The position numbers and the translations under genes are program-made. Positions 6,653 through 38,286 of a stretch of DNA of 64,000 nucleotides are shown in pieces. Under the pieces are notes generated by a model that saw nothing but the letters and a program-made list of their open reading frames with translations, ran no database searches and had not been told where the DNA came from. The stretch comes from Elsinoe ampelina (taxonomy: Eukaryota), in NCBI GenBank assembly GCA_010093995.1, contig ML992513.1, positions 741,203 to 805,202 on the forward strand, written 5' to 3'. Every line of letters begins with the position of its first letter. Position 1 is the first letter of the stretch.

Positions 6653-6668
6653 TCACTTCCATCTAGCA

Positions 6669-15955: not shown

Positions 15956-16939
15956 TTATGCGAGTCCATCGAGCAGTCCTCCGACACCGGTTGCGCTGGG
16001 TGTAGCAGATAAGGACGCTGATGTCGTGGTGACTGACTCCAAACTGGTGGTGATGGTGATGCTGCTGCTGCTGGCCAGGGCGCTGACTGAGCTGGCAGAC
16101 TCGCTAACGCTGCTCAATGTGATGCTTGTAATTGAGGCGGTGGTAGTTGTGCTGCCGCTGATGCTGCTACCGCTGCTGCTGGTCGAAAGGAGTCCGCCGA
16201 GGAGATCCTCCGAGCTGACGCTGGAGCTCGAGACAGTGCCGGTGCTGGAGACCGAGCCGGTGCTGGTGAAAGAGCCGGTGCTGGGAAGAACGCTCAACAG
16301 AGTGATGGAGCTGCTGTGGGATGAAGTGATCGAGGAGTTGAAGAAGCTGCTCAGGACGCTAGTAGTCGTGGGAAGAGTGCCATTCAAAGACAAAGTGACG
16401 GATGCAGTGCTGTTACTCAGCATCGACGAGGTCGAGGACGCCATGGTGATGGTCGCGACAGAGGAGCTGCTAGGACGAGGCGTGGCGCTACTGGTGGAGT
16501 TGGTCTTTGCGAAGCACTTGCATGCATTGTACACGGAGCGGACGTTGATCTTCTCAAATGGAGAGTCGGCCCTCCATTTGGCCGTGTTCCAGTATTTGCA
16601 GAACTCGGATGTCTTCTTGGCCTCCTTCTGGAGTGCCTTCTTCTGGGCACTGCTACACTTGGGAGCAGCTCCTGGATTTGTGACCGGGCTAGCTGCCTTG
16701 GTGGACTGCTTCTTTTTGGTGATGCAGGTGCATGCCTTGGAGAATTGTGCTCGTGTGAGAGCATTGACCGGAGATTTGGTTTGCTTATAATCGAGGTACC
16801 AATTGCAGAAGTCCTTTGGTACGTTGAAGGCCTTCTTGACGGTGGCTACCTGTGTTTGATTGCATGACTGCTTGGGAGCCGCGAGGACAGCAGAAAAGAA
16901 AAGAGCAAGTAGGAGAACAACACTAGAGAGACGAGACAT
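15956..16939 (-). CDS. Secreted protein A: two Cys4 Lys-rich repeats plus a Ser/Thr-rich tail (mucin-like); paralog of 37153..38286
   Basis: Signal peptide MSRLSSVVLLLALFFSAVLA. Repeats C..FCNWY..ACTC and C..FCKYW..ACKC. ~180-aa S/T tail. Intronless. Confidence 0.85.
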   Translation of the reverse strand: MSRLSSVVLLLALFFSAVLAAPKQSCNQTQVATVKKAFNVPKDFCNWYLDYKQTKSPVNALTRAQFSKACTCITKKKQSTKAASPVTNPGAAPKCSSAQKKALQKEAKKTSEFCKYWNTAKWRADSPFEKINVRSVYNACKCFAKTNSTSSATPRPSSSSVATITMASSTSSMLSNSTASVTLSLNGTLPTTTSVLSSFFNSSITSSHSSSITLLSVLPSTGSFTSTGSVSSTGTVSSSSVSSEDLLGGLLSTSSSGSSISGSTTTTASITSITLSSVSESASSVSALASSSSITITTSLESVTTTSASLSATPSATGVGGLLDGLA

Positions 16940-17678
16940 GTTGATGAAGGTGATACTGACGTCTTTCGCAGGTAGTGTGAGTGTCGGAAGGGGGGTGGCC
17001 TGCCACCGAAGTTATAGTCTAGTGTGCTCTCATCACATATCAGTCCCGTTGATGGTAAAATTGCCGAATCAAGGAAATAACGGTCAAGATACAAACATCG
17101 TTGTTCGGTACTGTCGTTGCAAGCAGGCTTGTTGGTATTTTAATCACGATCGAAGTGCCGTTGGCTACGGATCTTGCTTCTGCCTGGGTGGCAGTTCAAC
17201 CACTTCTGACTGTTTGACAATCCAGATGACTTCCAATATGCCAAGGCACCGGCCTCACTCATCCCCAAGCCAGTGGTGTACAATCTCTCGTATGCTTGAG
17301 TCTAGGCGCTGGAGATACGACTGAAACAGGCCTGCTTGGATGTACTAGATGGTGTCGCTCCTTGGTTGCTACCCACCTCGCAATGCAACATGTAAGCACC
17401 AATTGAAAGCCATCTCGGCTGACTCGCAGATAGCAACAGTAGTTCTGAGTTTGCAACACTGAGTCTCGATCGGATGGAGGTCCTCTTCACCAGTCGCTGC
17501 AAGGGTGCCCATCATGACTGTGGGCGACCGTCCGATACCGTCTTCCACTGATCAGTGTCCATGACTAGCTGAAGATAAGGCAGAGGCTGTCAGGGACTCG
17601 TCAATCATCAAAGCTTGATCATCCGCTGTGTAAGGGTATTTGGAAATTATTCTTCTGTATCATGCAATAAAAAGGACA

Positions 17679-19199
17679 CTACTCGTTGCCATGTGTGGGA
17701 GAGAAGCCCAGCTCCTGGAATAACTTTGCGGCTCCATGCTTGCGGACGTAAGCGATTTCCTCGTCATCTGTGAATTTCTCGACCGGCTTCAGCTCTGCGT
17801 TGTGCCAGACGAGCTGACAGTCTTGATCTTTGTTCTTCCCGCAGAGCAGCTCGTACGAGCGTACTGTCCCGAATTGGTCCAAGAAAGCTCCCTCACCACC
17901 CCAACCGGTATGCTTCCAGAAGCTAGGTCCGCTGATCGCAGTGCCTAAAAGTGTCGAGTTGAATGTGAAAGATCCATAATCAAACAATCCCCCGACAGCC
18001 TCCCCGATATCCTCGTCGACTTTGGCCTTCTCGAAACCCACGAGGTCCGGACCAACGAGAAGATTACCAACCGGAACGACACCAAGACGTACCACCTTGA
18101 CAAGTTTGTCGAAGAGGCCTGGCACGATCTTGTTGTCGTCATCGAGTCCGTAAACTGGACCATGACCGTAAAGACCACCTCGACCGGATCGGGTCAAAGC
18201 ATAAATCATTTGAAATAGAGCATTCTTCTGTGCATTGCCCCAAGATTTGGTTTTGCCATATGCGAAGTAGATGAAGGATACACCGGTCCGTTGCAGCGTA
18301 CGAAGGATGAGAGGATCAATCTCAACATCATCCTCAGCAATGATCCAGACCACTTGCCAGTCACGAACGTCATGTTGTTCTTCTGAATTGACATCAAGCA
18401 TGCGCTTCTCCTGTTGCGACATCCAGGAGCGAATTGCACGTCCGTGGCGTCGGAAGTACTGAGGACGGAATTCGGCCGACTTTCCCTCCGGAGTGGTCGC
18501 TGTGGTCAGGTAGATTGTCGGCCTGCCAGTGTCCAGTCCGAACAGAGACCAGGCCATCATCTCATCGAGGTGATTGGCCGTCCGCCCGATGAGCTTCAGC
18601 GCTTGCTCACCATTAAGATGCTGTCGGGCGCAGTATATATCCAGAATTGCGAGGCGCACAAATTCGTTGACGTCGACCGTATCGGAAGAGGGATGTACAT
18701 GACTCTCAAGCGGTCGGGGCGGGAAACCAAAGCTGGCGCTTGATTGAGGAGTTGGCTTGTAATACGGAACGATTGCCTGACAGTTGCACAGTGTGCAGAG
18801 ATCTCTCGGCCTTGCGGACTCGAGATGGAGAGGAAATTGAGCTGGACTCGCAATTTCTGCGTCATAAAGTTGTTCGAAGAAAGGGCTGGTCGCATTCGTG
18901 ATATTTCCAGTTCGTGACCTTGACAACACCAAAGCTACCAGCAGGGAAATGATCAAGCAACCCACAGTGAGTGTCCGCCATGAGCTGGCAATGGTGGCGT
19001 AGGCATCATCCACGTCGAAGTTGTTGGCTATCGTGCGAATTTTCTCCAATAGTCTGCTCCTGGTAACCCTCCGCCGGCTGTTGCGGTCGTCGAGGTGCAT
19101 CTTTTCTGTGTCGCCTTCTTCATCCAGTAGTGCTAGATCACTTCCAGTATCACTTTCGTCTCGGTAGCGGTTCATGATTTCCGTGTCGCTTTCGACCAT
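17679..19199 (-). CDS. GT43-like glycosyltransferase (glucuronosyl/xylosyltransferase fold), type II membrane protein; intronless; alternative ATG at 19226
   Basis: Ordered GT43 motifs PTIY, WIIAED, NAQKNAL, GPVYGLDDDN, VVPVG, DYGSFTFN, GGEGAFL, LVWHN. N-terminal TM LTVGCLIISLLVALVL. Confidence 0.8.
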   Translation of the reverse strand: MVESDTEIMNRYRDESDTGSDLALLDEEGDTEKMHLDDRNSRRRVTRSRLLEKIRTIANNFDVDDAYATIASSWRTLTVGCLIISLLVALVLSRSRTGNITNATSPFFEQLYDAEIASPAQFPLHLESARPRDLCTLCNCQAIVPYYKPTPQSSASFGFPPRPLESHVHPSSDTVDVNEFVRLAILDIYCARQHLNGEQALKLIGRTANHLDEMMAWSLFGLDTGRPTIYLTTATTPEGKSAEFRPQYFRRHGRAIRSWMSQQEKRMLDVNSEEQHDVRDWQVVWIIAEDDVEIDPLILRTLQRTGVSFIYFAYGKTKSWGNAQKNALFQMIYALTRSGRGGLYGHGPVYGLDDDNKIVPGLFDKLVKVVRLGVVPVGNLLVGPDLVGFEKAKVDEDIGEAVGGLFDYGSFTFNSTLLGTAISGPSFWKHTGWGGEGAFLDQFGTVRSYELLCGKNKDQDCQLVWHNAELKPVEKFTDDEEIAYVRKHGAAKLFQELGFSPTHGNE

Positions 19200-20481
19200 C
19201 CTAATGATAGCAAAGGCTTTTTCCATACACAAATAGCAAGTGACCTGCTTTGACGACCTCAATCACTTCCATGCAAACTGGGAAGTGGTTTGTTGTTGGC
19301 AGGCAATCTGCAACCGGGGACCAAGCACGGCGGATACAACAGCGAAAATGGAAAGAAATTGGTTATGTACCAATTGCGGTTCAGACGTAGCCAGGCCCCA
19401 CGCCGACAACGGCTGATAATGCAGGTGCAGTGCTGTACTGTGACCACCGCTAAGCGTTCATGCACGAAGCTTCACTGGCTGGGGGGGATCATTCGTTCCA
19501 GGGGACCGAGAAAAGGGAGAAGCCATGACCTCGATCAATTTGCAAGGCGTCGTGGCTGTCGTGCAACGTTTCTGCAGATATTGACCACAACGGTCCCGCC
19601 CTTTCGAGGGCATCTTGGCAGATCATTGCCTCCTGAAATCAATCATGACAGAATCTGGTTCACAGACTCGCCTTGGGCGGCTGTGGGCTATCAATGGCCA
19701 TAAGGTGGTTCGAGGGCGTTCGCTGCAGCTGTGGTGCAGATCAGACCGGCTCTGGTCCAGAAAGACGTTGGTCGAGGCTCGATACGGTGACGTGGCGCGA
19801 GAGACATGCTGACGGGAGCAGACAATATTTTCAGCCATGTGGCAGATGTTACGAAAGTAAGGGATGCAGAAAGAGCTTGATGGGGGGTCCGTCGAAGCTT
19901 GATAGGCGCGCTGACTCATCCTTCATGGCGACACCACGCCACCTGTCTTTACCTCGCTTCATCTCCACCGCTGCTACTATATCAAACAGGATGATGTTGA
20001 TGCCATTTGCGAGCACAAATCGGACTCCCAGGATGACTGCATATACAAACGAAGCATTGATTCCCCTGCAAAGGGGCAGCTTTGCGGTGTGTCTACTGCG
20101 TAACGGCGGCCAAGTTACCCCTTATTAGTCGAATCTTCGACGCCGTTTAGAGCCTCACTACTAAGTTTAAGCACTCAGTCCACCTCGATTTGGTTGATTG
20201 GTTTAGCTCGGATCCTTTCGCCTGCATGCGCAAGCGTTCAGCTGAACATGTTCCAGCCAAAGGGGCAAGAAATTCGAGCTGCCATTTGATGTGCAACGTC
20301 TTCTCCCTTCTCGACTCCGGACGCTCTCCTCCCCCGTGAGGCTTGCAGATGGTTCAGTAGACGGCACCATGGGCGTCCCATAACGGTCTGATCGGTGAGC
20401 TTTGCTTAGTCTCTCACTTGATCCATCTTCTCCCACAATTGTCTTCTGCTTCAGAGAAAATCATAGTCGGTTTCAGTCATC

Positions 20482-22740
20482 ATGTTGACTTCAGTACAAC
20501 ACCGTCGGGTCGTCGTTGGGACAATCTCGTTCCTCATTCTGGTCACGATCCTTTTCTTGACGCTGCCAGCCTCATCAGTCGGCCGGGTCCCCAAGCTGCT
20601 GAGATACAAGCACACCAGCGATGCATCCACATCCGTCGATGTCAGTAATCAGGATCTGAGCATGCCCACGGGCTCCTTCACGTACGACAATATTGCTCAG
20701 ATAACGAGTGATTTAGAAGTAGCGAGAGATCCATGCGAAGGGCTTGCTCTACCAGAAGGAGGGAAGAATGCGTCAGGGACAGAGGGGACACTGGTACTTG
20801 TGACTGGCGGTGCGGGATTCATTGGCTCGAATCTTGTGGACAGATTGCTCCATCTGGGATACAAGGTCAGGATATTCGACAATCTCTACACTGGGTTTAT
20901 CCGCAATGTCCCGCTGGAGCATGAAAACGTCGAATTCTTCTTTGGCGATATTCTAAACAGGACGGCTCTCCAAGAAGCTATCAAGGGTGTCGACTACGTC
21001 TTTCATCTTGCCGCCATGAGCAAGGTCGTCCCGTCGCTGAAGAATCCCGACATGGCCCGTTTCTGCCTAGAAAGCAATGCTCTGGGGTCGTGGAACGTAC
21101 TGGAAGAAGCACGTCTTGCCGGCCACATCAAGAAAGTCATCTATGCGGCGTCATCGACATATTATGGTAATGCACCTCCGCCTCATAAGGAGACTATGGC
21201 TCCGGATTTCCTCACTCCCTACTCGAGCAGTAAATACGAAGGGGAGTTGCAGATGCAGACTTTTGACCAACTCTTTGGTGTGCCTACCGTTAGCACCCGC
21301 TTCTTTATGGTGTATGGTCCTAGACAACCGACCACTGGAGCCTACGCTATCGTTACCGGCGTGTTTGCCAAGGAAGCCGCAGACGGCAAGCCACTCACTA
21401 TCGAGGGAGACGGGAGTCACTCTCGTGACTTTATCCACGTCAGTGATATCGTGGAAGGCCTCATCCTCGCTCAGCAGTCTCCGACGCTTCACGGAGAAGT
21501 CATCAACCTAGGTACCGGCTCGTCGTACTCTGTGCAGGATCTGGCCGATCTGGTCTCTAAGGATCAGGTCAAGCTTCCACCACGCGAGCACGACTTGGTG
21601 CGCACTTTGGCCGACACTTGCAAGATGAAGAAATTGCTACAATACCAGCCCAAGACGGATTTCATCAAAGAAATGAGCTACATGGTGAAGGCGACGAAAG
21701 AAGGCAATGTGTTTACACAAGATTGGTTTACCATATCAAGAGCGTTGTCTGCGCCGCACTTGCTTCCCGCTGGCAGTCCGGAATTCGGATGGCCAAAGGA
21801 GCAGAACGATCTTGACGCACTCCTCGTGAGCTTGCAGCACGTCAAGGAGAAGATCCATGCTGGAGAGGAAGACAACCAACGCCTGGTCACCGTGCTGCCT
21901 CTCACACTTCATGGACTTGACGATACTGATTTGCCTGCTCTCCGAGAACTGCTCTTGAACACGGTGTATACTCTGGTTCGCTACGGAAATGTTGTTCGAT
22001 ATATCGTCGCAGCGACCAATGACAAAGCGCTGGCGATTTGCACCGAGCTCAACCTACCTTGCCTGGATGTCCGGGATAATCTCAAATCGAGCCCTGCTCT
22101 TGTGGACGCCCTGCTAAGCCGTGGATATGACGTGCATTACGCAGTCATCGGTAACAGCTATGCATCATCTGTGCCTGCCTTCTTGTACAGCAACAGCAAC
22201 GAAGAGATCTCCAGCTCGGACGTCATCCGGGTACAACAGCAAGGTGACTTCTTTGTGAGATTGACCGACGAGACTCGGCACGCTTTCTCGTCCATGGACA
22301 AGAATGGTCCAACCTCTCATTTATCCATGCTGCGAGGCAAATCGTGGCCAAACGCAGAACTCAGTCAAGCCCGTTTCGAGGCGGCACACCTTTGCGACGC
22401 ATCAGTCAAGCAGACTTCTTCGTACACAGATGACGATGGAGCGGGCTACTCATCCCCTCCAGGCGGTCACAAGGCCGCGCCGGGTTCGAAAGTACCACAC
22501 CAAGTCAGGGCCTCGCACAAAGTCTGCGATACTATCGGCCACCGTCTCTTTGTCACGCCTGGTTGTGCTGACAAGCCAGTGGTCGTGGCGAATGCGACTG
22601 TCGAGGCACTCGTCAAAGCGGGTGCGTTTCATCTCAGCCAATGTCATGACCCAGAACACTGCGATGTTCAGCAGATCCTTCCATCGAGGTGGATTCAGAA
22701 GACGGCGGATCTTGCCACGTCTGGAGATCTTTGTTCTTAG
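20482..22740 (+). CDS. Membrane-anchored NAD-dependent nucleotide-sugar epimerase/dehydratase (extended SDR) fused to a degenerate nucleotide-diphospho-sugar-transferase-like domain; intronless
   Basis: N-terminal TM, then VLVTGGAGFIGSNL, VFHLAA, AASSTYYG, YSSSK, VYGPRQ, GDGSHSRDFIHV. C-terminal YIVAATNDKALAIC..LPC..LLSRGYDV. Confidence 0.88.
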   Translation: MLTSVQHRRVVVGTISFLILVTILFLTLPASSVGRVPKLLRYKHTSDASTSVDVSNQDLSMPTGSFTYDNIAQITSDLEVARDPCEGLALPEGGKNASGTEGTLVLVTGGAGFIGSNLVDRLLHLGYKVRIFDNLYTGFIRNVPLEHENVEFFFGDILNRTALQEAIKGVDYVFHLAAMSKVVPSLKNPDMARFCLESNALGSWNVLEEARLAGHIKKVIYAASSTYYGNAPPPHKETMAPDFLTPYSSSKYEGELQMQTFDQLFGVPTVSTRFFMVYGPRQPTTGAYAIVTGVFAKEAADGKPLTIEGDGSHSRDFIHVSDIVEGLILAQQSPTLHGEVINLGTGSSYSVQDLADLVSKDQVKLPPREHDLVRTLADTCKMKKLLQYQPKTDFIKEMSYMVKATKEGNVFTQDWFTISRALSAPHLLPAGSPEFGWPKEQNDLDALLVSLQHVKEKIHAGEEDNQRLVTVLPLTLHGLDDTDLPALRELLLNTVYTLVRYGNVVRYIVAATNDKALAICTELNLPCLDVRDNLKSSPALVDALLSRGYDVHYAVIGNSYASSVPAFLYSNSNEEISSSDVIRVQQQGDFFVRLTDETRHAFSSMDKNGPTSHLSMLRGKSWPNAELSQARFEAAHLCDASVKQTSSYTDDDGAGYSSPPGGHKAAPGSKVPHQVRASHKVCDTIGHRLFVTPGCADKPVVVANATVEALVKAGAFHLSQCHDPEHCDVQQILPSRWIQKTADLATSGDLCS

Positions 22741-22825
22741 ATGTCGTTTGCGATAGTTTTTGCATGTATTTAGCACCTGTTTAATCATGGACAACTCACG
22801 ACTTTAATTTTGTACTAGTTCCATT

Positions 22826-22966
22826 TGTTGTAATAGAGGACTAGTACAGCTTCTCTAGTACTAAATAACTAGTACTAATGAGTTAGCACACGTATAGTAG
22901 ATAATCGGTTATTGTAACTTACTAAATAAATAACATATCTCTCGATCCGATTTGCTAATTATAATA
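22826..22966 (+). repeat. 5' LTR (141 bp)
   Basis: Direct repeat of 28795-28935 at constant offset 5969. Begins TGTTG. Confidence 0.95.
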
Positions 22967-25900
22967 CCTAAAGGTACTATAAAGATTTTATAAAGTACTA
23001 CTATTAATATACTATTACTATAGAGTAAAGAGTAAGTACTATTAGTACTATACTAGATAAGTTTAAGCTTTCTCTATACTATATTAAAACTATATTTATT
23101 ATAGGAATAAAGACTACTAAATAGTTAAAGAGCTAAAGATCTAGCCTTAACTATAAGAAGAGTCTTAAAGAGATAATAGACTCTTTTAGAATATAAAAGC
23201 CTCTATATAATTAAAGAACTAGTCTAAACTCTATCTATAAGGTAGTTAGCTATATTAAAGATTAATATACTTAATATACTTATTATATCTACTCTAATAT
23301 AGATTACTTTAAGTAGTACCTTAAGAAAGTACTAAAGAGTTAAAGTAAGAGAAATAATAAAGATAAGTTAAATAATAAGAATACTAAGGCTAAAGGTAGA
23401 AGTAATAAGTTAAAGACTAAGAAAGTTAAAGATTAAGCTATTATTAAAGAATCTAAAGAGCCTACTAAGATAGAGAAATTTAATAAGTAATCTAATAGTA
23501 ATATTAATATTATTAGATTAATTTATACTAAGGTAGCTATATCTATATTATTATTATTATTATTATTAATATATAGCTAGAATAAAGTAATCTATAACTC
23601 TAGTATATTAAGGTACTTTATTAAGGATAAGTTATAGTTCTTAATAATTAAGATATATAAAGAAGTTTTTAAATTTAAATAAGCTATTAGTATAAAGAAG
23701 CTACTTAATATAGAAATTAGTAAAGTTAGGCTTATTCTAACTAATAGTAAAGAAAAGAAGATAATTATTAAACTTAATAGTTATATATACTTACTATTAT
23801 TAACTAATACTCTTATATCTAATCTTTAGAATAAAGAAGAACTTAGTATTCCTATAGTTAGTAAATCCTTATTAAAGGATAGAAAGGAAGTTAGCCTTAT
23901 TAAACATTTTAAAAGAGTTAAGTAGTTAAAGAACTTTAAGATTTATAAGCCTTAGGATATAAGCTAACTACTTTTAAAGCTAAAACTATAAAAACTATAG
24001 GCTATAAGAGTAAATCTAGCTATAGTAACTATATAAAGACTAATATTAGAGAGATAGTACTAGAGACTAGGCTATATTAGTAATATAGTTCTTTCCCTTA
24101 CTAAAAGCCTAGCTATTAGACTAGAAGAACTTTAAATATTAGATCTTAATTACTATAAACTATATACTATATTAAAAGTATAAAGAGTAGTATTAAGGAA
24201 ACTAAGAGATCTACTAAAGTACTTACTAGATAAGCTTTATCTAGACCTTATTAGTCCTATTAAACTATAGTTAAGTAAAGGCTATAAGTACTTTCTCTTT
24301 ACTATATATAGTAAAAGTAAGTATAAGTTTATTACTATTCTCTTTCTAAAGAGTAATACTCTAGTAGCTATTAAAGCTATTTATACTAAGAACTATATAG
24401 CTTATAATAAACTATTATTTATCTTTATCTTTAATAGAGATAGTAAATTTAAGAATTATAAGCTAGTAATAGCTATTTAACTTAATAGTTAGAGATAGAA
24501 TATCTCTATACCTAATACTTAATATTAAAATAGAGAGTCTAAGGCTACTAATAAAGCTATTATCCTTAGAATAAGATATATCTTTATTAATTATAAAGCA
24601 CTCTTTAAACTCTAGTACTTATTAGTAGAGTTTATAATCTATATTAGTAATAGAATTACCTATACTAAAACTAAGAAAATCCCTATATAAGAATTAAGGA
24701 AAGATCTTCTTAATAATAATAAACTAGTCTTATTAATATATATTAAACACTTTAGCTATAAAGCCTATATCTATAATTAATATATTTCTAAATTATATAA
24801 GTTTTAAGCTAGAGTACTACTTAGCTAGTATATTAGAATATAACTTAACTCTAAGACTAATTACTTTATCTAGATACTTTACTAGTACTATACTTAATAA
24901 GCCTAGAAGAGAAAGATCTTAATATTACTTTATATTACCTTTAATAAAGGTATAGTCTATAGAGATTAAGTAATATAGCTTATTAAGTAACTATATATTC
25001 TATAAGTATAACTACCTAAAGCTTTATAGTTTTAGAGAGAGTAGATATTTAGTAGTAATTATTATAAAAGCTATAGCTAGAACTAACTACCCTTTAGTTA
25101 TAAGAATCTATAAACTACTTAGGCTAAATAGCTAATATCTAACTACTCTATAACTCCTAGATATAAATAACTATCTACCTCTATTAAAGAGTAAGAGAAG
25201 TATCTATAATACTATTACTTTTAAATAGATACTTAACTTATTAATAAATAAAAGAAGTAACTTATTAAGTAACTTAATAATAATAATTATAAAGGTAAAG
25301 ACCTTATAATACTACTACTTAAAGTTATTAGTAAACTATATTCTACCTTTAATTTAATATTTAATATTAATTAGCTACTAATATATACTTAAAATAAGAA
25401 TATTAACTTCCTTATTATACTCTTTAATATATAGTCTTTAATAGATAAAAGAAAGAAATTACTTTTACTATAAGAAACTATTAGAAAGTCTCTTAGAATA
25501 TACTACTAGATTAATTATAAGAGACTTAATAATAATAAGATTATTAGATCTATAGCTATTAACTTTAAGCTAGACCTATAAATAGTAAGAGATATACTAT
25601 TCTCTCCTAAAGAGTATTACTAGTAAGCTATAATAGAAGTAAAGTAGAATACTCTAAAAAATACTAAAACCTTTTTAATTATTAAGAAATTATAGATACT
25701 AAGAGGTATTAGGCTAATAATAAGTAAATAAGTCTTTAAGATTAAGAGGCTTACTAATAGTAAAGTTAAGAGATATAAGGCTTACTAGACTATAAAAGAC
25801 TTTACCTAAAGGTAAAGTATTAACTTTATTAGAATCTTTATACTAATACTAAGAGCTAAAACTAGAAGAGTAATTCTTATATATACTCTTTACTATAACT

Positions 25901-28794: not shown

Positions 28795-28935
28795 TATTAT
28801 AATAGAGGACTAGTATAGCTTCTCTAGTACTAAAGAACTAGTACTAATAAGTTAGCACACGTATAGTAGATAATTGGTTATTATAACTCACTAAATGAAT
28901 TACACGTCTCTCGATCCGATTTGCCAATTACAACA
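28795..28935 (+). repeat. 3' LTR (141 bp)
   Basis: Direct repeat of 22826-22966. Ends CAACA, followed by TSD CCATT. Confidence 0.95.
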
Positions 28936-29379
28936 CCATTTACCCCAAATCGCGGGACAGAAAGGCCGTTTGCGCCGTCGTTTAATCAATTTGGTGTTAT
29001 TATGCAGAGGGGTGAAAGAGCCGCCTCAATTATTAATGGCAGGGTTTATAGAAGCCCTCCATGTCCTTCTCCCATACTTCCAACAAGCTTTGCAAGACCT
29101 CACCTTGCTTGCTCGCATCGGGAATCGCTGCTTGATGAGACGGTCGAAATCAAGCCTTTGTGTCAAGACTCGCAACACCATTCAGGTGCTTCAGCAAGAT
29201 CTACATCGGTGGAGGGAATCACCGACTTTGCCGTTTTAGCCTTTCATAAATTATCCTCGGCATCTGTTTAATCCTGGCATAACTGTGCACCCACGGCATC
29301 TCGTTGGAGAAGCCTTCAAAACACCTCTGCCAGCCATGTAGGTATTCTGTCTTCTTTGTGCACATCATCTATTTTCATA

Positions 29380-31020
29380 ATGTCTACTATAATGTCGGAA
29401 AAGGAGCCCGATGTCGAGAATACGCCTGGCACTGTAGAGGCAATGCAGAAGAGCACATCCACCGCCAGCTCGGATGGGGAACCACAACAAGAACAACAGG
29501 ATCAATATCTGGTCACTTGGGATGGCGAGAATGATCCAACCAATCCTCTGAACTGGTCGAGAGGCAAGAAAATTATTCATATCGCCATGGTCTCTGGATT
29601 GACCTTTGTTACGTGAGTGCTACCACTTCTCGCTCACTCCACATTATTTCTGATCATGTCCAAGCCCGCTGGCTTCATCCATGTTCGCCCCAGGAGTACC
29701 CTACGTACTACAACGATTCCAACAATCAAACGAAGTCCTCGCCTCATTCGTCGTGTCCGTCTACCTTGTCGGTTACGCATTCGGTCCTCTTCTCTGTGCG
29801 CCTCTCTGCGAACTCTACGGCCGAGCCATCGTCTACCAAGTCACCAACGTCCTCTACCTAGGCTTCAGCATAGGCTGCGCCGCCGCACCCTCCTTCAACA
29901 GCCTCATTGGCCTTCGCTTCCTCGCAGGCGCTGCTGGTTCCGCACCCCTCGTCCTCGGCGGCGGCACCATTGCCGACCTCTACAAACGCGAAGAGCGCGG
30001 CGCGAAGATGTCCATTTTCTCCATGGGGCCTCTCATGGGTCCCGTCATCGGTCCCATCGCCGGTGCCTTTGTAGCACAAGATGTCAGCTGGCGATGGGTA
30101 TTCTGGATCATCTCCATCGCGGCAGGGGTATGCACTGTCTTCTGCCTGATCTTCATGCGAGAAACCTACGCTCCGGTCCTGCTCGACCGCAAGGCGAAGA
30201 AAGTCCGGGCCGAAACGGGTAACCCTCTGTACAAAACCATGTACGATACCGGCGACACGCCCAAGGACGTCTTCGTGAAAGCCCTCTCCCGCCCGACGCT
30301 CATGTTCGTCAAGTCCCCCACCGTCTTCATCTTCACAGTAAGTCACCTCCCCCAACCCTTGGACACCCAGCACCCTGACACGACGGACCATAGATGTACC
30401 TCTCCATCATCTACGGCTTCACCTACCTCCTCTTCGTCACCATCACCCAAGTCTTCGAGTCCACCTACGGCTTCTCCACCGGCATCGCCGGCCTCGCCTT
30501 CCTCGGCATCGGCATCGGCATGTTCCTCGGCCTGGCCGTCTTCGGCGCCACATCCGACCGCCGCATCCGGAGCCTCAAGGCAAAAGCCGAAGCCAAGGGC
30601 GGGACCGTCAACGATGTGCCTCCCGAAGTGAGGCTGGAAGGCATGATTGGCGCCGCGGTTGTGATTCCCATAGGGCTGTTTTGGTATGGATGGAGCGCGG
30701 AGAAGGAGATACATTATATCATGCCTATCATCGGCACGGGCTTGTTTGGTTTGGGGAATATTGGCATCTTTATCGCTGTACAGACGTACCTGGTGGATTG
30801 CTACCCATTGTATGCGGCGAGTGTGACGTCGACGCATACTGTGGTGAGGTCGTTGTTGGGGGCTTTTCTACCCCTGGCCGGACGGCCGCTGTACAGGGAT
30901 CTGGGACTGGGGTGGGGGAACTCGTTGTTGGGGTTCGTGGCCGTGGCTATGATACCGGTGCCGTTGGTGTTGCTGAAATATGGGGGTAGAGTGAGGGAGA
31001 AGTTTCAGGTCAAGTTCTAG
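29380..31020 (+). CDS. MFS drug:H+ antiporter (DHA1 family); 3 exons
   Basis: WDGENDPTNPLNWS, APLCELYGR, GGGTIADLY, GPVIGPIAG, ETYAPVLL, PPEVRL, LGLGWGNSLLG. Confidence 0.92.
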
Positions 31021-31269: not shown

Positions 31270-33189
31270 TCAATCATACAGAGCAGCAACCTCCATCGCA
31301 TTCAATTCTTCCTCATCCACTTCGTCCTCTATGCAAACGTCAGCGAGCACTCTCACCAAGCCATGAATCAAACTCACCATGAGCCACCTTCTTTGCTGCC
31401 TTTTTCGCCGGGACACGTCCAGGACTAGTCTTGCCCTTTGCCGCCGCTGCAGGTTTCCCCTTCTTCGTCTCACTACTCTTGCCCTTCGGCTTAGCCTTCG
31501 GACCGGCTTTTGCGGCGGCCCCCACAGGTGCAGGTTTGGCGCCAGCCTTCCCAATGGCGACGTCAGCTGTAGCCTTCTTTTCTTGAGCTGGGTCACTCTT
31601 CCTTCCAGCCCCGACACTCCCATCCTTGCCTAGCTTGCCCTTCTTCTCAAACGTGGGCTTGACCCCTCCGGCTCCAGGGGCTTCGATGACCTTCTGCTTC
31701 GCCGCCTGCTCTTCTTCCTCGGCGACGAGCTGCTCGTGCTCTTCGAGAACATCCATAGCGTCGACGATATTCTCACTCGCCGAGTTGTCGATTTCTTCCG
31801 GATCAATCTCCTCGGCTTCTTTGGCAGCGACGACCTTCTTGAGTTCCTTGGCCTCGGCTTCTTTCTGTTTCGCAACCACTTCCTGAACCTTCTTAGCTTC
31901 GGCCTCCTTGGCGGCGGCGGCTGCCTTCTTCTCCTCGACTACCTTCTCGATGGCTTTCTTGTCTTCGGGTTTGACCTCGGGGGCTTTGTCGACGGCGGCA
32001 GGGGCTTCGTTTGGCTTCGCCAACCCGAGCTCGTTCACTGCTTCGGCACGTAGCTGTTCGTCCGTCTTGAACCAGCTGCCGTCAAACTTGTGTTTGGCAA
32101 ATGCCTTGCCATATGCTGGGTCGCCAGAGTGGCTGTGTGGTTGTCCCCAGCCGAAAGCGTTGACCGGAAGGATGAGGACGTCACCGAGCTGTTTTGGCTC
32201 TTTGATACCAGAGAGCATTTCCGGAACGAAATCAATACCTTGATCCTGCAAGTGATGAACCACAGAGTCACTGAGGCCGCCAGGGCCAGTGCTGAACAGG
32301 ATATCCTCGAAGCCAAGGTCGGCATCGTCGACTTCCTTGCGCTGTTGTCGAGCAATCAACTCGAGGTTGGCCATTGCTCGTGACACCATGTTTTCCATCA
32401 ACGGATGACCAGGCTTGACCATGAATGTCCACTGCACGAAGCTGACGGGTTTGGCAAAGGCGTATTTGGGCGGACTATCCCATTCGATGCCGACCACCGC
32501 ATTGATTTTGCCATTCCTGTACTCTTCCGGAATCCATTCATCAATGGGCTCCATACACTCGGTGTCCGAGTCGGTGTAAACGCCTCCTTTGGCCAGCAGG
32601 ATCAGGTAGCGTAGGACGTCGGAGCGAACGACAGGTACCGTGAGGCGTTTCCAGAACCGGGTGATGGCGGGGCGATTCTTGAAGATGCGGGCGACAAATT
32701 CATCGCTCTCTTCGTCTAGAAGGAAATGGTGTCAGGATCGCTGTGGGCTGAACATGGGTCAAGCGTAGACTCACCACTCAAATGCACATGTCTCCACCCG
32801 GGGTTCATCTTGTGCCACGAAGCGATATTCCGAGTATTCCGTCGCCGCAGATTGAGAGGTGACTTTTGCCATATGTTTTTGGGGAATGGTTGATCCAGTA
32901 GCTCTGTCACACGTGCTGAGTAGCCAGCGGTAAATATGTTTGTGCCTCCGGCGACTGATATACCCACGCTGGAGCTGCGGTGGTGGGATGATGTCCTTTC
33001 GCGACCGCTGGTAGCTCGGTGGATGCTGCCGGACCACTCTTGCTGACTCCGCATGCTCATGCTGGTAAATTTGTGCGGTACAACACTCTTGACATGCGAG
33101 GAAATGGATTTGGAGGAGATGCTCAGGTAGGTGAGGTAGCCGATGATGGCCAGCAGCCAAAATGGCCGCAGGCTTGACATGGAATGCAT
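31270..33189 (-). CDS. GT32 (OCH1-like alpha-1,6-mannosyltransferase family) glycosyltransferase with a long charged low-complexity C-terminal tail; 3 exons
   Basis: N-terminal TM, FPKNIWQ, SWHKMNP, spliced VVRSDVLRYLILLAKGGVYTDSD (DxD), VVGIEWD, QWTF..KPGHP, TGPG, HKFDGSW. The last exon ends ...EVAALYD at 31270. Confidence 0.88.
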
Positions 33190-33667
33190 CCTGTGTTTCG
33201 CAGAGCGAGAAAATAAAGACGGTCGACGTGAGGCACGACGGAGAAGATGCACAGTACTTACAGCATTTGGTCGGATGCCTATCTCGTCATGCAGGGGGCC
33301 CGGGAAGGAGACCAGCGCGAACGGGGGGGTGATCAAAGCTAGTTTATCCCTGGTCGCAACGGTGCGGCGTGAAGGTCTCGTTGATCGAGGGGACGATCTT
33401 TGCTAGAGTCTAGACGCGCCCGGTGCATTTTTGCGTCTTAGCGGAGGTACGAAGAGTATTGGGTTTGGATGGACGGCGATGGAGGAGAGAAAGATGCATG
33501 TCTGCTGGCAGGCCTGGAGATTTGGCCGAGTCACGGTCAAAAAATGCTTCACCATCATAAAATAATAGATACACGTCTGCAATACTGCATGTGATGGTAG
33601 ATCAGAAACAAAGACGCCCGCTCGTCCATATCCATGCAAATGTGTAGCGACTATGTCCATGTATTCC

Positions 33668-34881
33668 TCAAAACCCCGTTCCGCCCGTGGCATGTATACC
33701 ATGCTTCTTCCGATACAACCTTCGTTGTTGCATTTCTGTAATGAGGTCGTCGACGATCAGATCTTCCTCCAAAGCATCGCCAGACCAGAAGGATATGAGC
33801 TCGGTCTGTAGCTCTGATCCCTCGAATTCGAGCTCCCAATCTGACCGAGCCTCCTCGGCAATCATCATAAAGGCTTCCATTGCGCGCGTCTTGTGGGCGA
33901 GTCCGGCAAAGTGCACAAACAGATCGCCTTGTCGTAGGGTCGCTTTGTGTAGCTCCTTGTCCGGCAGCTCTGCTGACACAGATCCTCCCTCCATCTTCAC
34001 TTCCCACTCGGTCGGTTTCGCATTGAACCACCGTTGTGGCACATGCATGACGTGTTCGCGAAACGAGTCCTGCCATGAGTAAGAGCTTGCGGTGAGCCGT
34101 CTGACACTATGATACGTACACTGAGGATCCAGAGCTCAAGTGCTGTCTGCTCGCTGTATTCCAGGTCGACATCCCCCTCGTACATCTCAATACCAATGAC
34201 AGTCTTGAGCAGCTGTATCGACCAGGGGTGTACTCGTAGGAAGAAGACACCATTATTAAGTCCATTGTCGTCATTTGTGACGAGCATGTGGATATGCGAC
34301 CATTGATCTTGAGGCGGAAGGAAGGCTTCTAGAGGGGTGTTTGGGTTCATGAGGGTGACATCCGCATCATACCACCTTGGCATAGAAGTCAGTGCTCTGA
34401 AGCTCTAGGGTCAGTCAAAGACGTACATCATCCATTGCAATCGCTCATTTTCGGGTTTGGCCAGTTCCAGAGTAATGAGACTCAGCATGTAGACTGTTCG
34501 ATCCCAGAAACCTCCAATCACAGGCTGAGTGAGCACAAAATGTTTGTAGCCAAATCTTTCGTCATGTCGTCTGTGTAATTCGTGATTCCGCAAGACGATT
34601 TCGTTTTCTTGGTATTTCCCGGTGATTAATGATACCTTTGCCACTTCCAGGTTGTCCGCACTCGATTGTCGGCCTCCTTTGCGCAGCATGTCAGTGAGGA
34701 AGATGGCGACAAAGAGAAACGAAAAGACATAAAGCAAGGCTCGACAAGGTCCGCGGCCTCCCAATAGTGATTTCCGATTCCCAGCGTACATGTCCGGCGA
34801 CTGCGAAAAGCGTGTCGGCTTCCACAATGGCTCCTTGTGATGCCAGGCAGCTTGACTGACAGGTGGGCTTTTTGGCGACAT
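33668..34881 (-). CDS. GT34 (GMA12/MNN10 family) glycosyltransferase, type II membrane; 3 exons
   Basis: TM ALLYVFSFLFVAIFL, ELAKPENERLQW, spliced MWYDADVTLMNP (DxD), GLNNGVFFLRV, EQTAL, VPQRWFNA, GDLFVHFAG. Confidence 0.9.
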
Positions 34882-35237
34882 GAGGGCAAATGCGGTCAAG
34901 AACTGGAGGGGTCTGACGAGAATATTTATTATCGGACAGACAAGCTCCCAGCGGAAACGGCGTGCCCCTGGCGTGGAAGGGCCCAAAAATGTCCAGAAGG
35001 CACAAAAGCATGTACATGCCCCTATCCAGGTGCAGGAACTCCTCGTGCAGGCGGGGCACTCTGCCTGCATGGACATCTGTGCGTAACCGTAGAAGGTCTA
35101 GTCTGCATGTTGAGATGTAAATTGAGATGACGAAATTAGTTATCGAATACGATGGGGTTCTGGAAGGACAGATAAAAGAGCTGACATGTCCGCTGTGGAA
35201 GACATTATGTCTGGTCTTCCACACGTGTTTCGCCCCG

Positions 35238-35278
35238 CATCCCTCAGGGACACATCCCTCAGGGCACATCCCTCAGGG
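35238..35278. repeat. Three direct copies of CATCCCTCAGGG upstream of the GT34 gene
   Basis: Copies at 35238, 35253 and 35267. Confidence 0.85.
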
Positions 35279-37051: not shown

Positions 37052-37109
37052 CACTGCACAGCACAGCACAGCACAGCACAGCACTGCACAGCACAGCACA
37101 GCACAGCAC
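37052..37109. repeat. (GCACA)n pentanucleotide microsatellite, ~11 units, just upstream of the secreted protein B ATG
   Basis: Read directly; two GCACT-type variant units. Confidence 0.9.
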
Positions 37110-37152
37110 GGTCTATTCCCCTCGTTTCACTTCTAATTCACTTCCATTCACA

Positions 37153-38286
37153 ATGCATCGCTCAGTCCTCTTCGTCTTCTTCGCGCTCTTCGCGACTGCC
37201 TTCGCTGCCTTCAACCCCAAGAACTGCGGCAAGGGAGTAAAGAAGACTGATGCCGCCTTCATCAAGACAAAGTTCACCAACTCCAAGGCCTTCTGCAACT
37301 ACTACCTGAGCGAGAAGCGCACTCTCATCCCCGTCACCGGCAAGCCATTCACTGGCAACGCCAACAGCGCTGCTCTCATCAAGCGCTTCTCCAACGCTTG
37401 CGAGTGTATCTCCAAGAAGAAGCAGTCCACCAAGAAGCAGGCTTCGATCAAGCGCCCCGGTGCCGCCCCGGTCTGCAACAAGGCCCAGCAGAAGACTCTC
37501 GCCGGCCTCGTCAAGAACCCAGCACCTTTCTGCAAGCAGTGGCGTACTTCCACCTGGAGGCCCGCTTCCCAGGCTCCTTTCGGCAAGACCTTGAACGTCC
37601 GCCAGATCTACAACGCCTGCAAGTGTGTCCTCGACCCTGTCAAGACCTCCTCGACCAAGAAGACCTCAGCAAAGACCTCAGCAAAGACCTCCGCAAAGAC
37701 CTCCGCTGTGACCTCCGCTGTCGCCACCTCTGCCGCTACCTCTGCCGCAACCTCTGCCGCCTCTGTCGCTACCTCCGCTGCTTCCTCCGCGACCACCTCG
37801 GCTGCCGGCTCCGTCACTGTCCTCCCAGTCGCTACCAGCTCTGCCACCACCACCAGCGCTGTCTCGACCACCTCTGGCATTGATCTCATCAGCACCACCT
37901 CCGCCTCGGCTGTCTCCACCTCGACCATCACCTCTGCCGTCAGCTCTTCCACCGCCTCTCCCGTCAGCTCTTCCACCTCCGAAGTCAGCTCTTCCACCAC
38001 CTCTGCCGCCAGCTCTTCCACCACCTCTGCCGTCAGCTCTTCCACCACCTCCGAAGTCAGCTCTTCCACCACCTCTGCCGCCAGCTCTACCACCACCTCC
38101 GACGTCAGCTCTACCACAACCTCTGCCACCACCACCACCACTGAGGCCTCATCCACCACCTCTTCCCAGACCGCCACTGCCTCCCCATCCAACGTCGGCG
38201 GTGGCTCCACCAAGAAGAAGATGGCCATGCGCCTCCGTGGCCGCCAGTACTCCAACGCTGGCGCCGGCAAGGTCGACCTCGAGTAA
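37153..38286 (+). CDS. Secreted protein B: two Cys4 Lys-rich repeats plus a Ser/Thr/Ala tandem-repeat tail; paralog of 15956..16939
   Basis: Signal peptide MHRSVLFVFFALFATAFA. FCNYY..ACEC and FCKQW..ACKC. Tail with KTSA repeats and SSSTTS[AE][AV] 24-bp repeats. Strong C-ending codon bias. Confidence 0.9.
   Translation: MHRSVLFVFFALFATAFAAFNPKNCGKGVKKTDAAFIKTKFTNSKAFCNYYLSEKRTLIPVTGKPFTGNANSAALIKRFSNACECISKKKQSTKKQASIKRPGAAPVCNKAQQKTLAGLVKNPAPFCKQWRTSTWRPASQAPFGKTLNVRQIYNACKCVLDPVKTSSTKKTSAKTSAKTSAKTSAVTSAVATSAATSAATSAASVATSAASSATTSAAGSVTVLPVATSSATTTSAVSTTSGIDLISTTSASAVSTSTITSAVSSSTASPVSSSTSEVSSSTTSAASSSTTSAVSSSTTSEVSSSTTSAASSTTTSDVSSTTTSATTTTTEASSTTSSQTATASPSNVGGGSTKKKMAMRLRGRQYSNAGAGKVDLE

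What the first reader, a model, noticed from the sequence alone, without database searches (positions are those of the whole stretch)
15956..38286. Candidate glycoprotein-decoration cluster: three GT families and an epimerase-GT fusion bracketed by two paralogous secreted Ser/Thr-rich proteins
Seen: with the Copia removed, the order is secreted A(-), GT43-like(-), epimerase/GT-like fusion(+), DHA1 MFS(+), GT32(-), GT34(-), secreted B(+). All four glyco-enzymes carry an N-terminal membrane anchor of type II (Golgi-style) topology. The two outward-pointing end genes are clear paralogs with 180-200-aa Ser/Thr tails. Established: Golgi glycosylation genes are normally dispersed in fungal genomes. 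Precedents for clustering are the Aspergillus galactosaminogalactan cluster (uge3/gtb3/agd3/ega3/sph3, different enzymes) and bacterial serine-rich-repeat adhesin loci with dedicated GTs. Inference: this may be a self-contained system that makes a donor sugar and builds a special O-glycan on its own mucin-like scaffolds (adhesive, spore mucilage or immune-masking coat). I do not recognise it as a described cluster.
Basis: partly seen in the sequence, partly recalled or inferred. Interest (0 to 1): 0.88.

Follow-up and report, generated by a model that had tools for sequence, protein, structure and literature searches.

The report
Conserved fungal Golgi epimerase–GT43 gene pair
The seven genes are real, but only two are shown to belong together, a Golgi sugar epimerase and a GT43-like glycosyltransferase that stay adjacent across distant fungi and are fused into one protein in chytrids, while the link to the neighbouring enzymes and mucin-like proteins remains unproven.

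Summary
All seven genes are present at the stated coordinates and belong to the stated families. SecA and SecB are true paralogs. Spliced contigs cover MFS, GT32, GT34 and SecB.

That unit is the divergently transcribed pair of a GT43-like transferase (17679-19226, -) and a type-II SDR 4-epimerase with a GT-A-like tail (20482-22740, +).
- The pair has consecutive accessions in 9 named genomes from four ascomycete classes.
- The two genes also lie head-to-head on one metagenome contig.
- Two chytrid proteins carry both an SDR and a GT43 domain on one chain, one of them with a nucleotide-sugar-transporter domain as well.

The "GT" half of the fusion has lost its DxD motif in all 16 ascomycete-type rows, so it is probably not catalytic.

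Nothing I could reach shows that GT32, GT34, the drug-type MFS or the Ser/Thr-rich proteins travel with the pair.
- Other lineages have GH51 or GH79-like genes beside it.
- In E. fawcettii the SecB ortholog lies 12 genes past the fusion gene.
- The Sec family occurs in species with no GT43-like protein listed.

"Copia" was not confirmed. The block is an LTR-like, AT-rich element.

Fungal genome synteny for GT32 and GT34 could not be tested. The epimerase substrate and the glycan product are unknown.

The parts
15956..16939 (-). SecA: secreted protein of 327 aa. It has a signal-like N-terminus, an 8-Cys all-alpha domain and a 162-aa tail that is 54% Ser+Thr. Membership of the glyco-module is unproven.
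   Evidence: - ORF; no Pfam family.
- Paralog of SecB; composition.
- Closest named relative is E. batatas KVT40_007796, 78% identical.
17679..19226 (-). GT43-like type-II Golgi glycosyltransferase, 515 aa as read from the first ATG. It has a cytosolic tail, a TM segment at aa 81-106, a Cys-rich stem and a GT-A catalytic domain with an invariant DDD at 362-364. This is core part 1.
   Evidence: - Pfam PF03360.
- The family profile hits only the human GlcAT-S, -P and -I structures at E 5.6e-11 to 2.7e-7.
- Alignment A1 shows D362, D363 and D364 invariant in 16 of 16 sequences.
- TM segment.
19227..20481 (.). 1255-bp divergent intergenic region shared by the GT43-like gene and the fusion gene. 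It is presumed to be a bidirectional promoter.
   Evidence: - Coordinates.
- The same head-to-head layout occurs on metagenome contig L003.
- Promoter function is inferred.
20482..22740 (+). Type-II membrane fusion protein of 752 aa. It has a TM segment at aa 7-36, an extended-SDR NDP-sugar 4-epimerase-like domain at aa ~105-400, and a degenerate PF03407/GT77-like GT-A domain at aa ~425-752 that lacks DxD. This is core part 2.
   Evidence: - Pfam PF01370.
- Best solved relatives are 4-epimerases; PelX 6wjb scores E 4.1e-49.
- The C-domain model has pLDDT 82.3 and GT-A-type fold matches.
- Homology to the PF03407 region of Allomyces P0071, E 1e-12.
- DxD is replaced by [ILVM]GN.
22828..28937 (.). 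AT-rich (GC about 22%) degraded LTR-like insertion between the fusion gene and the MFS gene. It is not part of the system.
   Evidence: - GC profile.
- 141-nt direct repeats 5969 bp apart, 90% alike.
- No Pfam hit in 6 read-through frames.
29380..31020 (+). MFS transporter of the MFS_1/TRI12-like (drug:H+ antiporter) type, 510 aa, with introns at 29613-29664 and 30338-30393. It is probably unrelated to glycosylation.
   Evidence: - Pfam hits.
- Spliced contigs with GT..AG joints.
- Gene model.
31270..33189 (-). GT32 (PF04488) type-II transferase of 603 aa, with a DSD motif at aa 187 and a ~230-260-aa Lys/Ala/Glu-rich C-terminal tail. Introns at 31329-31377 and 32716-32774. A link to the core pair is not shown.
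   Evidence: - Pfam hit.
- Splice joints in 3-4 runs.
- Gene model and motifs.
33668..35076 (-). GT34 (PF05637) type-II transferase. It is 435 aa from the first in-frame ATG, or 340 aa from the ATG at 34791. It has a DAD motif at aa 220. Introns at 34069-34118 and 34374-34424. A link to the core pair is not shown.
   Evidence: - Pfam hit.
- Splice joints in 4 of 4 runs.
- Gene model.
37153..38286 (+). SecB: secreted paralog of SecA, 377 aa. It has the 8-Cys domain, a 212-aa tail that is 54% Ser+Thr, and a conserved basic C-terminal motif (RLRGRQY-like). Membership of the glyco-module is unproven.
   Evidence: -.
- The E. fawcettii ortholog P0179 and Sphaceloma P0181 share the C-terminal motif.
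- Contigs cover it in 4 runs.

Best explanation
**What it is**
- The functional unit here is a two-gene Golgi module, not a seven-gene cluster.
- Gene 1 encodes a type-II membrane protein. Its lumenal part is an extended-SDR nucleotide-sugar 4-epimerase followed by a degenerate, DxD-less GT-A domain related to PF03407/GT77.
- Gene 2 is transcribed divergently from the same 1.25-kb intergenic region. It encodes a type-II GT43-like GT-A transferase with an intact DDD motif.

**Proposed mechanism (inferred)**
- The epimerase converts an imported UDP-sugar into its C4 epimer inside the Golgi, at the site of use. Candidate pairs are UDP-GlcNAc/GalNAc, UDP-Glc/Gal, UDP-GlcA/GalA and UDP-Xyl/Ara.
- The GT43-like enzyme transfers that sugar, or its partner, onto a Golgi acceptor.
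- The dead GT-A domain acts as a non-catalytic scaffold or acceptor-binding part that keeps the epimerase next to the transferase.

**Shown**
- The families, catalytic motifs and topology signals.
- Conserved adjacency of the two genes.
- Single-chain fusions in chytrids.

**Inferred**
- The substrate, the product, physical association of the two proteins, and the acceptor.

**The other genes**
- GT32, GT34, the drug-type MFS and the two Ser/Thr-rich secreted paralogs are real neighbours, and four of them are covered by spliced contigs.
- On present evidence they are neighbours only. They may or may not be clients or helpers of the module in the Elsinoe lineage.
For: **Adjacency of the pair**
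- GT43 and fusion have consecutive protein accessions in 9 named genomes:
  - E. fawcettii KAF4548486/87
  - Agyrium MCJ1307950/51
  - Lambiella MCJ1479308/09
  - Pseudovirgaria KAF2755455/56
  - Diploschistes KAI4148616/17
  - Exophiala sideris KIV82985/86
  - E. viscosa KAI1621169/70
  - a record labelled Elasticomyces, KAK4946367/68
  - Xylariales sp. KAH8667121/22
- On metagenome contig L003 the two genes lie head-to-head.
- 24 of the 57 non-window GT43 hits share their longest-contig length with a fusion hit. Eight of those contigs are shorter than 13 kb.

**Rosetta-stone fusions**
- Gaertneriomyces P0064 is SDR + middle domain + GT43. Cladochytrium P0066 is TPT transporter + SDR + GT43.
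- The GT43 part of P0064 is 31% identical to the window's GT43 over 236 aa, E 5e-25.

**Enzyme identity**
- The GT43 family profile hits only the animal beta-1,3-glucuronyltransferase structures. The DDD motif is invariant.
- The best solved relatives of the SDR domain are 4-epimerases: PelX E 4.1e-49, then WbpP, WbgU and the GalEs. UDP-GlcA decarboxylase is far weaker at E 5.6e-28.
- The window residues aligned to the PelX stretches that hold S121, Y146 and K150 are conserved Ser, Tyr and Lys (alignment; residue roles from passages of the PelX preprint).

**The dead GT domain**
- DxD is present in 4 of 25 aligned rows, all SDR+PF03407 proteins: two Allomyces, one Gaertneriomyces and one unnamed.
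- It is replaced by [ILVM]GN or AGT in all 16 rows of the ascomycete-type group, including the window.

**The same SDR clade elsewhere**
- In other eukaryotes this SDR clade is fused to transporter-type domains (TPT, EamA) and to a GT8 domain (Pfam columns).
Against: - In E. batatas the >=90%-identical orthologs all lie on one 1.68-Mb contig. They are fusion KVT40_007328, GT43 KVT40_007829 and SecA-type KVT40_007796. Their tags and accessions are not consecutive. Either the numbering is not positional or the pair is split there. I could not tell which.
- Four glyco-enzyme genes in seven slots is unlikely by chance if each counts independently (0.003 per genome). That favours a larger functional cluster than I accept.
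- In E. fawcettii a SecB ortholog stays on the same contig, 13 genes from GT43 and 12 past the fusion gene.
- MFS, GT32, GT34 and SecB are all covered by spliced contigs in the same runs from 3 studies.
- No experiment or structure shows that the two core proteins touch.
- The 4-epimerase call rests on similarity. No NCBIfam equivalog cut-off is reached.
Confidence: 0.7

Rival explanations
1. All seven genes form one self-contained system. The epimerase makes the donor, GT43, GT32 and GT34 build a special O-glycan, and SecA and SecB are its dedicated mucin-like scaffolds.
For: - Four Golgi-type glyco-enzyme genes sit in seven slots, flanked by two outward-facing paralogs with 54% Ser+Thr tails.
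- The rough chance expectation is 0.003 per genome if the genes count independently.
- MFS, GT32, GT34 and SecB are covered by spliced contigs in the same runs.
- The SecB ortholog stays within 13 genes of GT43 in E. fawcettii.
- A 7-mer, AGCTTTG, occurs in 6 of 6 upstream regions. This was selected post hoc.
Against: - No SecA/B, GT32, GT34 or MFS match was found on L001, L003 or L004 next to GT43. GH51 sits there on L003 and L004.
- Two of four Xylographa gene models run on into a GH79-like part.
- Sec-family members are named from Myriangium duriaei, Sphaceloma murrayae and Dothideomycetidae sp.. None of these species appears among the 58 GT43-like hits (word-index search, annotated proteins only).
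- The MFS is TRI12/drug-type.
- If the pair counts as one unit, the chance expectation rises to 0.2 per genome.
Confidence: 0.15
2. The SDR domain is a UDP-glucuronate decarboxylase (UDP-xylose synthase), and the GT43-like enzyme is a xylosyl- or glucuronosyl-transferase. Together they make a plant- or animal-like Xyl/GlcA glycan.
For: - The known GT43 donors are UDP-GlcA and UDP-Xyl (passages of PMC4449007).
- A Perkinsus relative of the SDR carries the database name "UDP-glucuronic acid decarboxylase 1".
- Human UXS structures are matched at E 5.6e-28.
- A GH79-type (beta-glucuronidase family) part is appended to two Xylographa gene models.
Against: - 4-epimerases score about 20 orders of magnitude better than UXS.
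- The stretch around the catalytic Ser reads SSTYYG. It has no Glu at the position that, from my recall, dehydratases and decarboxylases carry. That motif rule is recalled, not tested here.
- The Perkinsus name is an automatic label.
Confidence: 0.1
3. The whole arrangement beyond the pair is a chance neighbourhood, and the pair itself is only a bidirectional-promoter accident kept by inertia. Under this view there is no functional coupling at all.
For: - Gene pairs can persist without shared function.
- No direct interaction or co-regulation data exist.
Against: - Adjacency is kept across four ascomycete classes whose proteins are only 40-60% identical.
- Independent single-chain fusions of the same domains occur in chytrids.
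Confidence: 0.05

Closest known systems
Animal GT43 beta-1,3-glucuronyltransferases (GlcAT-I, -P and -S; PDB 1fgg, 1v82, 2d0j)
   Same: - They are the only solved structures hit by the family profile, at E 5.6e-11 to 2.7e-7.
- They share the Pfam family PF03360, the type-II Golgi layout and the DxD motif.
   Different: - The relationship is distant; the Pfam score is only 32.7 bits.
- The fungal proteins have an extra Cys-rich stem (CxxCxC) and a long cytosolic tail.
- Donor and acceptor are unknown.
- A 2015 survey (passages of PMC4449007) listed fungal GT43 only from Pucciniomycotina. It treated most weaker fungal hits as false positives.
Group-3 UDP-N-acetylhexosamine 4-epimerases (PelX 6wjb, WbpP 1sb8)
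   Same: - They are the best solved relatives, at E 4.1e-49 for PelX and 3.3e-39 for WbpP.
- The GxxGxxG motif and the Ser/Tyr/Lys positions are conserved.
   Different: - Those enzymes are soluble and bacterial.
- This one is membrane-anchored and lumenal by topology, and it is fused to a GT-A-like domain.
- Its substrate is untested.
PF03407 / GT77-type nucleotide-diphospho-sugar transferases
   Same: - The C-domain aligns to the PF03407 region of Allomyces SDR fusions, E 1e-12.
- It is predicted to have a GT-A-type fold.
   Different: - There is no Pfam hit at E <= 10.
- The DxD motif is lost in all ascomycete-type members, so it is likely a pseudo-enzyme.
   Same: - It is a fungal glycan locus that includes a nucleotide-sugar 4-epimerase. 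This resemblance is recalled, not tested here.
   Different: - No deacetylase or glycoside-hydrolase family of that cluster turned up in the Pfam scans of this window.
- The epimerase here has a membrane anchor and a GT-A tail.
- The transferase families here are different (GT43, GT32, GT34).
Plant Golgi nucleotide-sugar interconversion enzymes working beside wall glycosyltransferases, and non-catalytic GT43 subunits in xylan synthesis (recalled)
   Same: - It is the same logic: a type-II lumenal SDR makes the donor where it is used, and a catalytically dead GT serves as scaffold.
   Different: - This is only an analogy from memory. No plant sequence was compared here.
- In the fungal module the dead domain is PF03407-like, not GT43.

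Membership tests
GT43 (Pfam PF03360) | Pfam model matched above the gathering score | tested here: met
   32.7 bits against a cut-off of 27, E 8.5e-8, aa 291-390.
GT43 (Pfam PF03360) | GT-A DxD metal and nucleotide-sugar motif | tested here: met
   D362, D363 and D364 are invariant in 16 of 16 aligned family members.
GT43 (Pfam PF03360) | Closest solved structures are GT43 enzymes | tested here: met
   Four GlcAT sequences score E 5.6e-11 to 2.7e-7. The other 4 rows are at E 0.8 and are noise.
GT43 (Pfam PF03360) | Inverting transfer of GlcA or Xyl from a UDP donor | not testable with these tools
   This needs an enzyme assay.
Extended-SDR NDP-sugar 4-epimerase | Rossmann GxxGxxG motif plus Ser/Tyr/Lys catalytic positions | tested here: met
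   - GGAGFIGS is present.
- SS-T and YxxxK align with the PelX stretches that hold S121, Y146 and K150 (alignment; roles from passages).
Extended-SDR NDP-sugar 4-epimerase | Closer to epimerases than to dehydratases or decarboxylases | tested here: met
   PelX scores E 4.1e-49 and WbpP 3.3e-39, against UXS at 5.6e-28 and RmlB-type enzymes at 1e-25 or weaker.
GalE / TviC / LegB equivalogs (NCBIfam) | Score above the curated equivalog cut-off | tested here: not met
   GalE scores 120.6 against 262.3, TviC 124.9 against 760, and LegB 143.2 against 475. It is not an equivalog of any of these bacterial enzymes.
PF03407 / GT77-like transferase | Pfam model matched | tested here: not met
   0 families at E <= 10 for aa 401-752.
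PF03407 / GT77-like transferase | Homology to proteins that carry the domain | tested here: met
   30% identity over 160 aligned columns with the PF03407 region of P0071, E 1e-12.
PF03407 / GT77-like transferase | DxD motif | tested here: not met
   It is replaced by IGN in the window and by [ILVM]GN or AGT in 16 of 16 ascomycete-type rows. It is present in 4 of 25 rows, all SDR+PF03407 proteins.
GT32 (PF04488) | Pfam model above the gathering score, plus DxD | tested here: met
   49.2 bits against 23. DSD at aa 187 of the spliced model.
GT34 (PF05637) | Pfam model above the gathering score, plus DxD | tested here: met
   28.3 bits against 23 on one exon. DAD at aa 220 of the spliced model.
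LTR retrotransposon, Copia superfamily | Terminal direct repeats | tested here: met
   141-nt repeats, 90% alike, 5969 bp apart.
LTR retrotransposon, Copia superfamily | Copia-type reverse transcriptase or integrase domains | tested here: not met
   0 Pfam families in 6 read-through frames at E <= 0.01. The element is heavily degraded, so this does not exclude Copia.
Aspergillus galactosaminogalactan cluster | Deacetylase and glycoside-hydrolase genes beside the epimerase and the synthase | tested here: not met
   No such family was found among the Pfam hits for the ORFs of this window. The defining gene list is recalled.
Functional gene cluster of all seven genes | Co-location of the same families conserved outside the genus | tested here: inconclusive
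   - Only the pair is seen together elsewhere.
- Flanks were visible for just 3 short metagenome contigs.
- No fungal genome collection could be searched.

The most novel reading that the evidence does not exclude
The divergent pair is the ascomycete remnant of an ancient fungal Golgi "glycan synthase", still one polypeptide in chytrids (transporter + epimerase + dead GT + GT43). It would make a so-far undescribed fungal glycan containing a C4-epimer sugar such as GalNAc, GalA or Ara. In the Elsinoe lineage it would have recruited GT32, GT34 and two fast-evolving mucin-like proteins with a new all-alpha 8-Cys domain, giving a dedicated surface-coat factory.
Probability: 0.12. Interest if true: 0.8.

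Novelty: new variant of a known kind. Interest (0 to 1): 0.5.

Why it matters
- GT43-like proteins of ascomycetes are uncharacterised. The one survey I read listed fungal GT43 only from rust and red-yeast relatives (passages of PMC4449007).
- Three literature searches found no paper on this pair.
- Three features give a concrete, testable handle on an unknown fungal Golgi glycan. The epimerase and GT43 genes are adjacent in lichen-forming fungi, black yeasts, Elsinoe and a Xylariales species. They are fused in chytrids. One GT domain has decayed.
- The same features also illustrate in-lumen donor synthesis tied to a transferase.
- The Sec proteins define a small orphan family. Its domain is modelled with confidence and has no solved look-alike.
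- For the original claim, the value of this work is mainly in narrowing it from seven genes to two.

Tried and rejected
- **Own genome:** none is held for this window, so paralogs and genome-wide GT density could not be counted.
- **Metagenome scan with the GT43 alignment:** it gave only 4 short loci. Just L003 carried both core genes.
- **Word-index search with the SecB domain:** it found 1 protein among 49 candidates. The full HMMER search then found 33 representatives at E <= 1e-3. The profile kept the Ser/Thr tail columns, so some weak hits may be compositional.
- **An inference I withdrew:** I first read E. batatas P0004 (64% identical, on another contig) as the ortholog and concluded that SecA was unlinked there. 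One search showed that P0004 is a paralog. The true orthologs (96% and 90% identical) share a contig with the SecA ortholog.
- **RNA runs:** no RNA holder is on record for the GT43 and fusion stretch.
- **Depth of laid contigs:** the depths cannot rank genes, and uncovered intergenic bins are not evidence.
- **Complex prediction:** I tried it for the C-domain with GT43, and it was not available.
- **Sec N-domain fold searches:**
  - Foldseek gave 0 matches at E <= 0.001 and 14 at E <= 10.
  - VIA-align gave 1 of 48,161 chains at Z >= 2, with best Z 2.1.
  - The Atlas best feature score was 0.83, below the level of a lead.
- **Atlas search on the SDR domain:** it returned only generic epimerase clusters.
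- **Shared promoter motif:**
  - AGCTTTG occurs in 6 of 6 upstream regions, against a mean of 0.01 in block shuffles.
  - 14 window matches were found against 9.06 expected, and 6 of 100 shuffles reached 14. Eleven of the 14 lie at 15303-36840.
  - The word was chosen because it occurs in all six regions, so the clustering is largely built in. I give it no weight.
- **Earlier findings of this scan:** there were none.
- **Supplements:** I opened no paper supplements. CAZyme tables of the Elsinoe genome papers might list these genes.

Full report
**Observation**

The window is fungal DNA at about 52% GC, with an AT-rich block of 22-23% GC at roughly 22.8-28.9 kb.
- SecA, 15956-16939(-).
- GT43-like gene, 17679-19226(-): PF03360, 32.7 bits against a cut-off of 27.
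- SDR fusion, 20482-22740(+): PF01370, E 4.4e-50, aa 105-344.
- MFS: MFS_1 E 1.2e-34, and TRI12 E 5.8e-10.
- GT32: PF04488.
- GT34: PF05637.
- SecB, 37153-38286(+).

SecA and SecB are paralogs, 46% identical over 137 aa with E 5e-26. Their tails are 54% Ser+Thr. Hydrophobic N-terminal anchors are clear for the fusion, GT43 and GT34, and borderline for GT32.

The "Copia" label is not confirmed. The block has 141-nt direct repeats 5969 bp apart. None of six read-through frames hits a Pfam family.

**Transcripts and gene models**

Contigs of four public runs from three studies were laid on 28950-38700. They show six short skips of 49-59 nt with GT..AG ends on the strand of the gene:
- MFS: 29613-29664 and 30338-30393.
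- GT32: 31329-31377 and 32716-32774.
- GT34: 34069-34118 and 34374-34424.

The runs are not on record as RNA. Even so, these frame-restoring joints are best explained by mRNA-derived contigs. MFS, GT32, GT34 and SecB are all covered. Depth cannot rank them.

The spliced models are as follows:
- MFS: 510 aa.
- GT32: 603 aa, with a DSD motif and a long Lys/Ala/Glu-rich tail.
- GT34: 435 aa, or 340 aa from an internal ATG, with a DAD motif.

**The conserved unit**

The fusion protein has 495 relatives at E <= 0.001 among 8000 scored candidates. The GT43-like protein has 58 among 7999. Both lists draw on the same taxa:
- Elsinoe and Pseudovirgaria (Dothideomycetes).
- Exophiala (Eurotiomycetes).
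- Many Lecanoromycetes.
- One Xylariales species.

Of the 57 non-window GT43 hits, 24 share their longest-contig length with a fusion hit. Eight of those contigs are under 13 kb.

Exact look-ups give consecutive accessions for the two genes in nine named genomes. On metagenome contig L003 the genes lie head-to-head, as in the window.

Two chytrid proteins put the parts on one chain:
- Gaertneriomyces P0064 is SDR + middle domain + GT43.
- Cladochytrium P0066 is TPT transporter + SDR + GT43.

The P0064 GT43 part matches the window's GT43 at E 5e-25. Conserved adjacency together with these fusions is the main evidence that the two genes work together.

**What the parts are**

*GT43-like protein.* The family profile hits only the human GlcAT-S, -P and -I structures. 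It keeps an invariant DDD motif.

*SDR domain.* Its best solved relatives are 4-epimerases: PelX E 4.1e-49, then WbpP, WbgU and the GalEs. UDP-GlcA decarboxylase is far weaker at E 5.6e-28. PelX is a group-3 UDP-GlcNAc 4-epimerase with catalytic S121 and Y146 (passages of the preprint). The window has Ser, Tyr and Lys at the aligned stretches. No NCBIfam equivalog cut-off is reached, so the substrate stays open.

*C-terminal domain.*
- It has no Pfam hit.
- It aligns to the PF03407 region of Allomyces fusions, E 1e-12.
- Its model has pLDDT 82.3.
- The model gets weak GT-A and nucleotidyl-transferase fold matches, 6 at E <= 0.001.

In the 25-row alignment, DxD is present in 4 SDR+PF03407 rows. 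It is replaced by [ILVM]GN or AGT in all 16 ascomycete-type rows. I therefore read it as a non-catalytic domain.

**The rest of the locus**

*Neighbours of the pair in other lineages.* On L001, L003 and L004 none of SecA/B, GT32, GT34 or the MFS is found next to GT43. L003 and L004 carry a GH51 gene there instead. Two of four Xylographa models of the fusion run on into a GH79-type part.

*The Sec family.* It has 33 representatives at E <= 1e-3. Named members come from Elsinoe, Sphaceloma, Myriangium and an unnamed Dothideomycete. The last three do not appear among the GT43 hits.

*E. fawcettii.* The SecB ortholog lies 13 accessions after GT43 on the same contig.

*E. batatas.*
- The true orthologs are 96% (fusion), 90% (GT43) and 78% (SecA) identical to the window's proteins.
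- All three share one 1.68-Mb contig, but their tags are not consecutive. I cannot explain this.
- The species is too close a relative for its synteny to be informative.
- A second fusion paralog, 64% identical, lies on another contig.

*The Sec N-domain.* Its model has pLDDT 91.9 and is an all-alpha, 8-Cys double repeat. It has no solved look-alike.

**Verdict**

That idea is supported only for the two-gene module.

Whether the Elsinoe lineage has built a larger glycoprotein system around the module remains open. I put that at about 15%. I found no paper describing this pair in three searches.

Noticed in passing
E. batatas proteins P0212, P0213, P0180 and P0004: E. batatas has two fusion paralogs, one 96% and one 64% identical to the window's. 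The orthologs of the fusion, GT43 and SecA share one 1.68-Mb contig, but their locus tags (007328, 007829, 007796) are far from consecutive.
   Followed up: partly
L003:5867-6955(-) and L004:853-1872(-): On two metagenome contigs a GH51 alpha-L-arabinofuranosidase gene (PF06964, E about 3e-38) lies convergent to the GT43-like gene. Two Xylographa fusion models (1250 aa) carry a GH79 C-terminal domain, while two cluster mates are 755 aa.
   Followed up: partly
window 31270-32050 (GT32 C-terminus): The GT32 protein ends in a tail of roughly 230-260 aa made mostly of Ala, Lys and Glu (49 A, 43 K and 32 E in 233 aa of the unspliced ORF). That is unusual for a Golgi transferase.
   Followed up: no
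window 32716-32774: The run X1 contig keeps this GT32 intron, which would stop translation at aa 157. X2, X4 and X6 splice it out.
   Followed up: no
window 36121-36219 and ORF 35766-36134(-): One X1 contig shows a 97-nt minus-strand joint (CT..AC) between GT34 and SecB. This hints at an unannotated spliced transcript. The nearby ORF has no Pfam family.
   Followed up: no
window 37041-37118: A short tandem repeat, read as HSTAQ/HSTAL in one frame, sits just upstream of the SecB start codon. The read-laying tool skipped it as a repeat.
   Followed up: no
SecB C-terminus (window ~38200-38286), P0179 and P0181: SecB-type proteins share a basic C-terminal motif (MRLRGRQY-like) after the Ser/Thr tail. 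SecA-type proteins end in GGLLDGLA instead.
   Followed up: no
window 15303-36840: The 7-mer AGCTTTG occurs in all six upstream regions of the locus, and 11 of its 14 window matches fall here. It was selected post hoc and is not significant after that selection.
   Followed up: yes
window 4184-14530: The left flank holds a Zn-cluster-type transcription factor domain, an amidase, a second MFS, a copper amine oxidase and a DUF1996 protein. This may be an amine or amide catabolic neighbourhood.
   Followed up: no
window 60001-64000: A second AT-rich stretch, 30-32% GC, lies at the right end of the window. It is probably another degraded repeat.
   Followed up: no
Pfam columns (P0084, P0096, P0098, P0106, P0114): In protist and metatranscriptome proteins the same SDR clade is fused to TPT or EamA transporter domains, or to a GT8 domain. 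This suggests a recurring "donor made where it is used" design.
   Followed up: no
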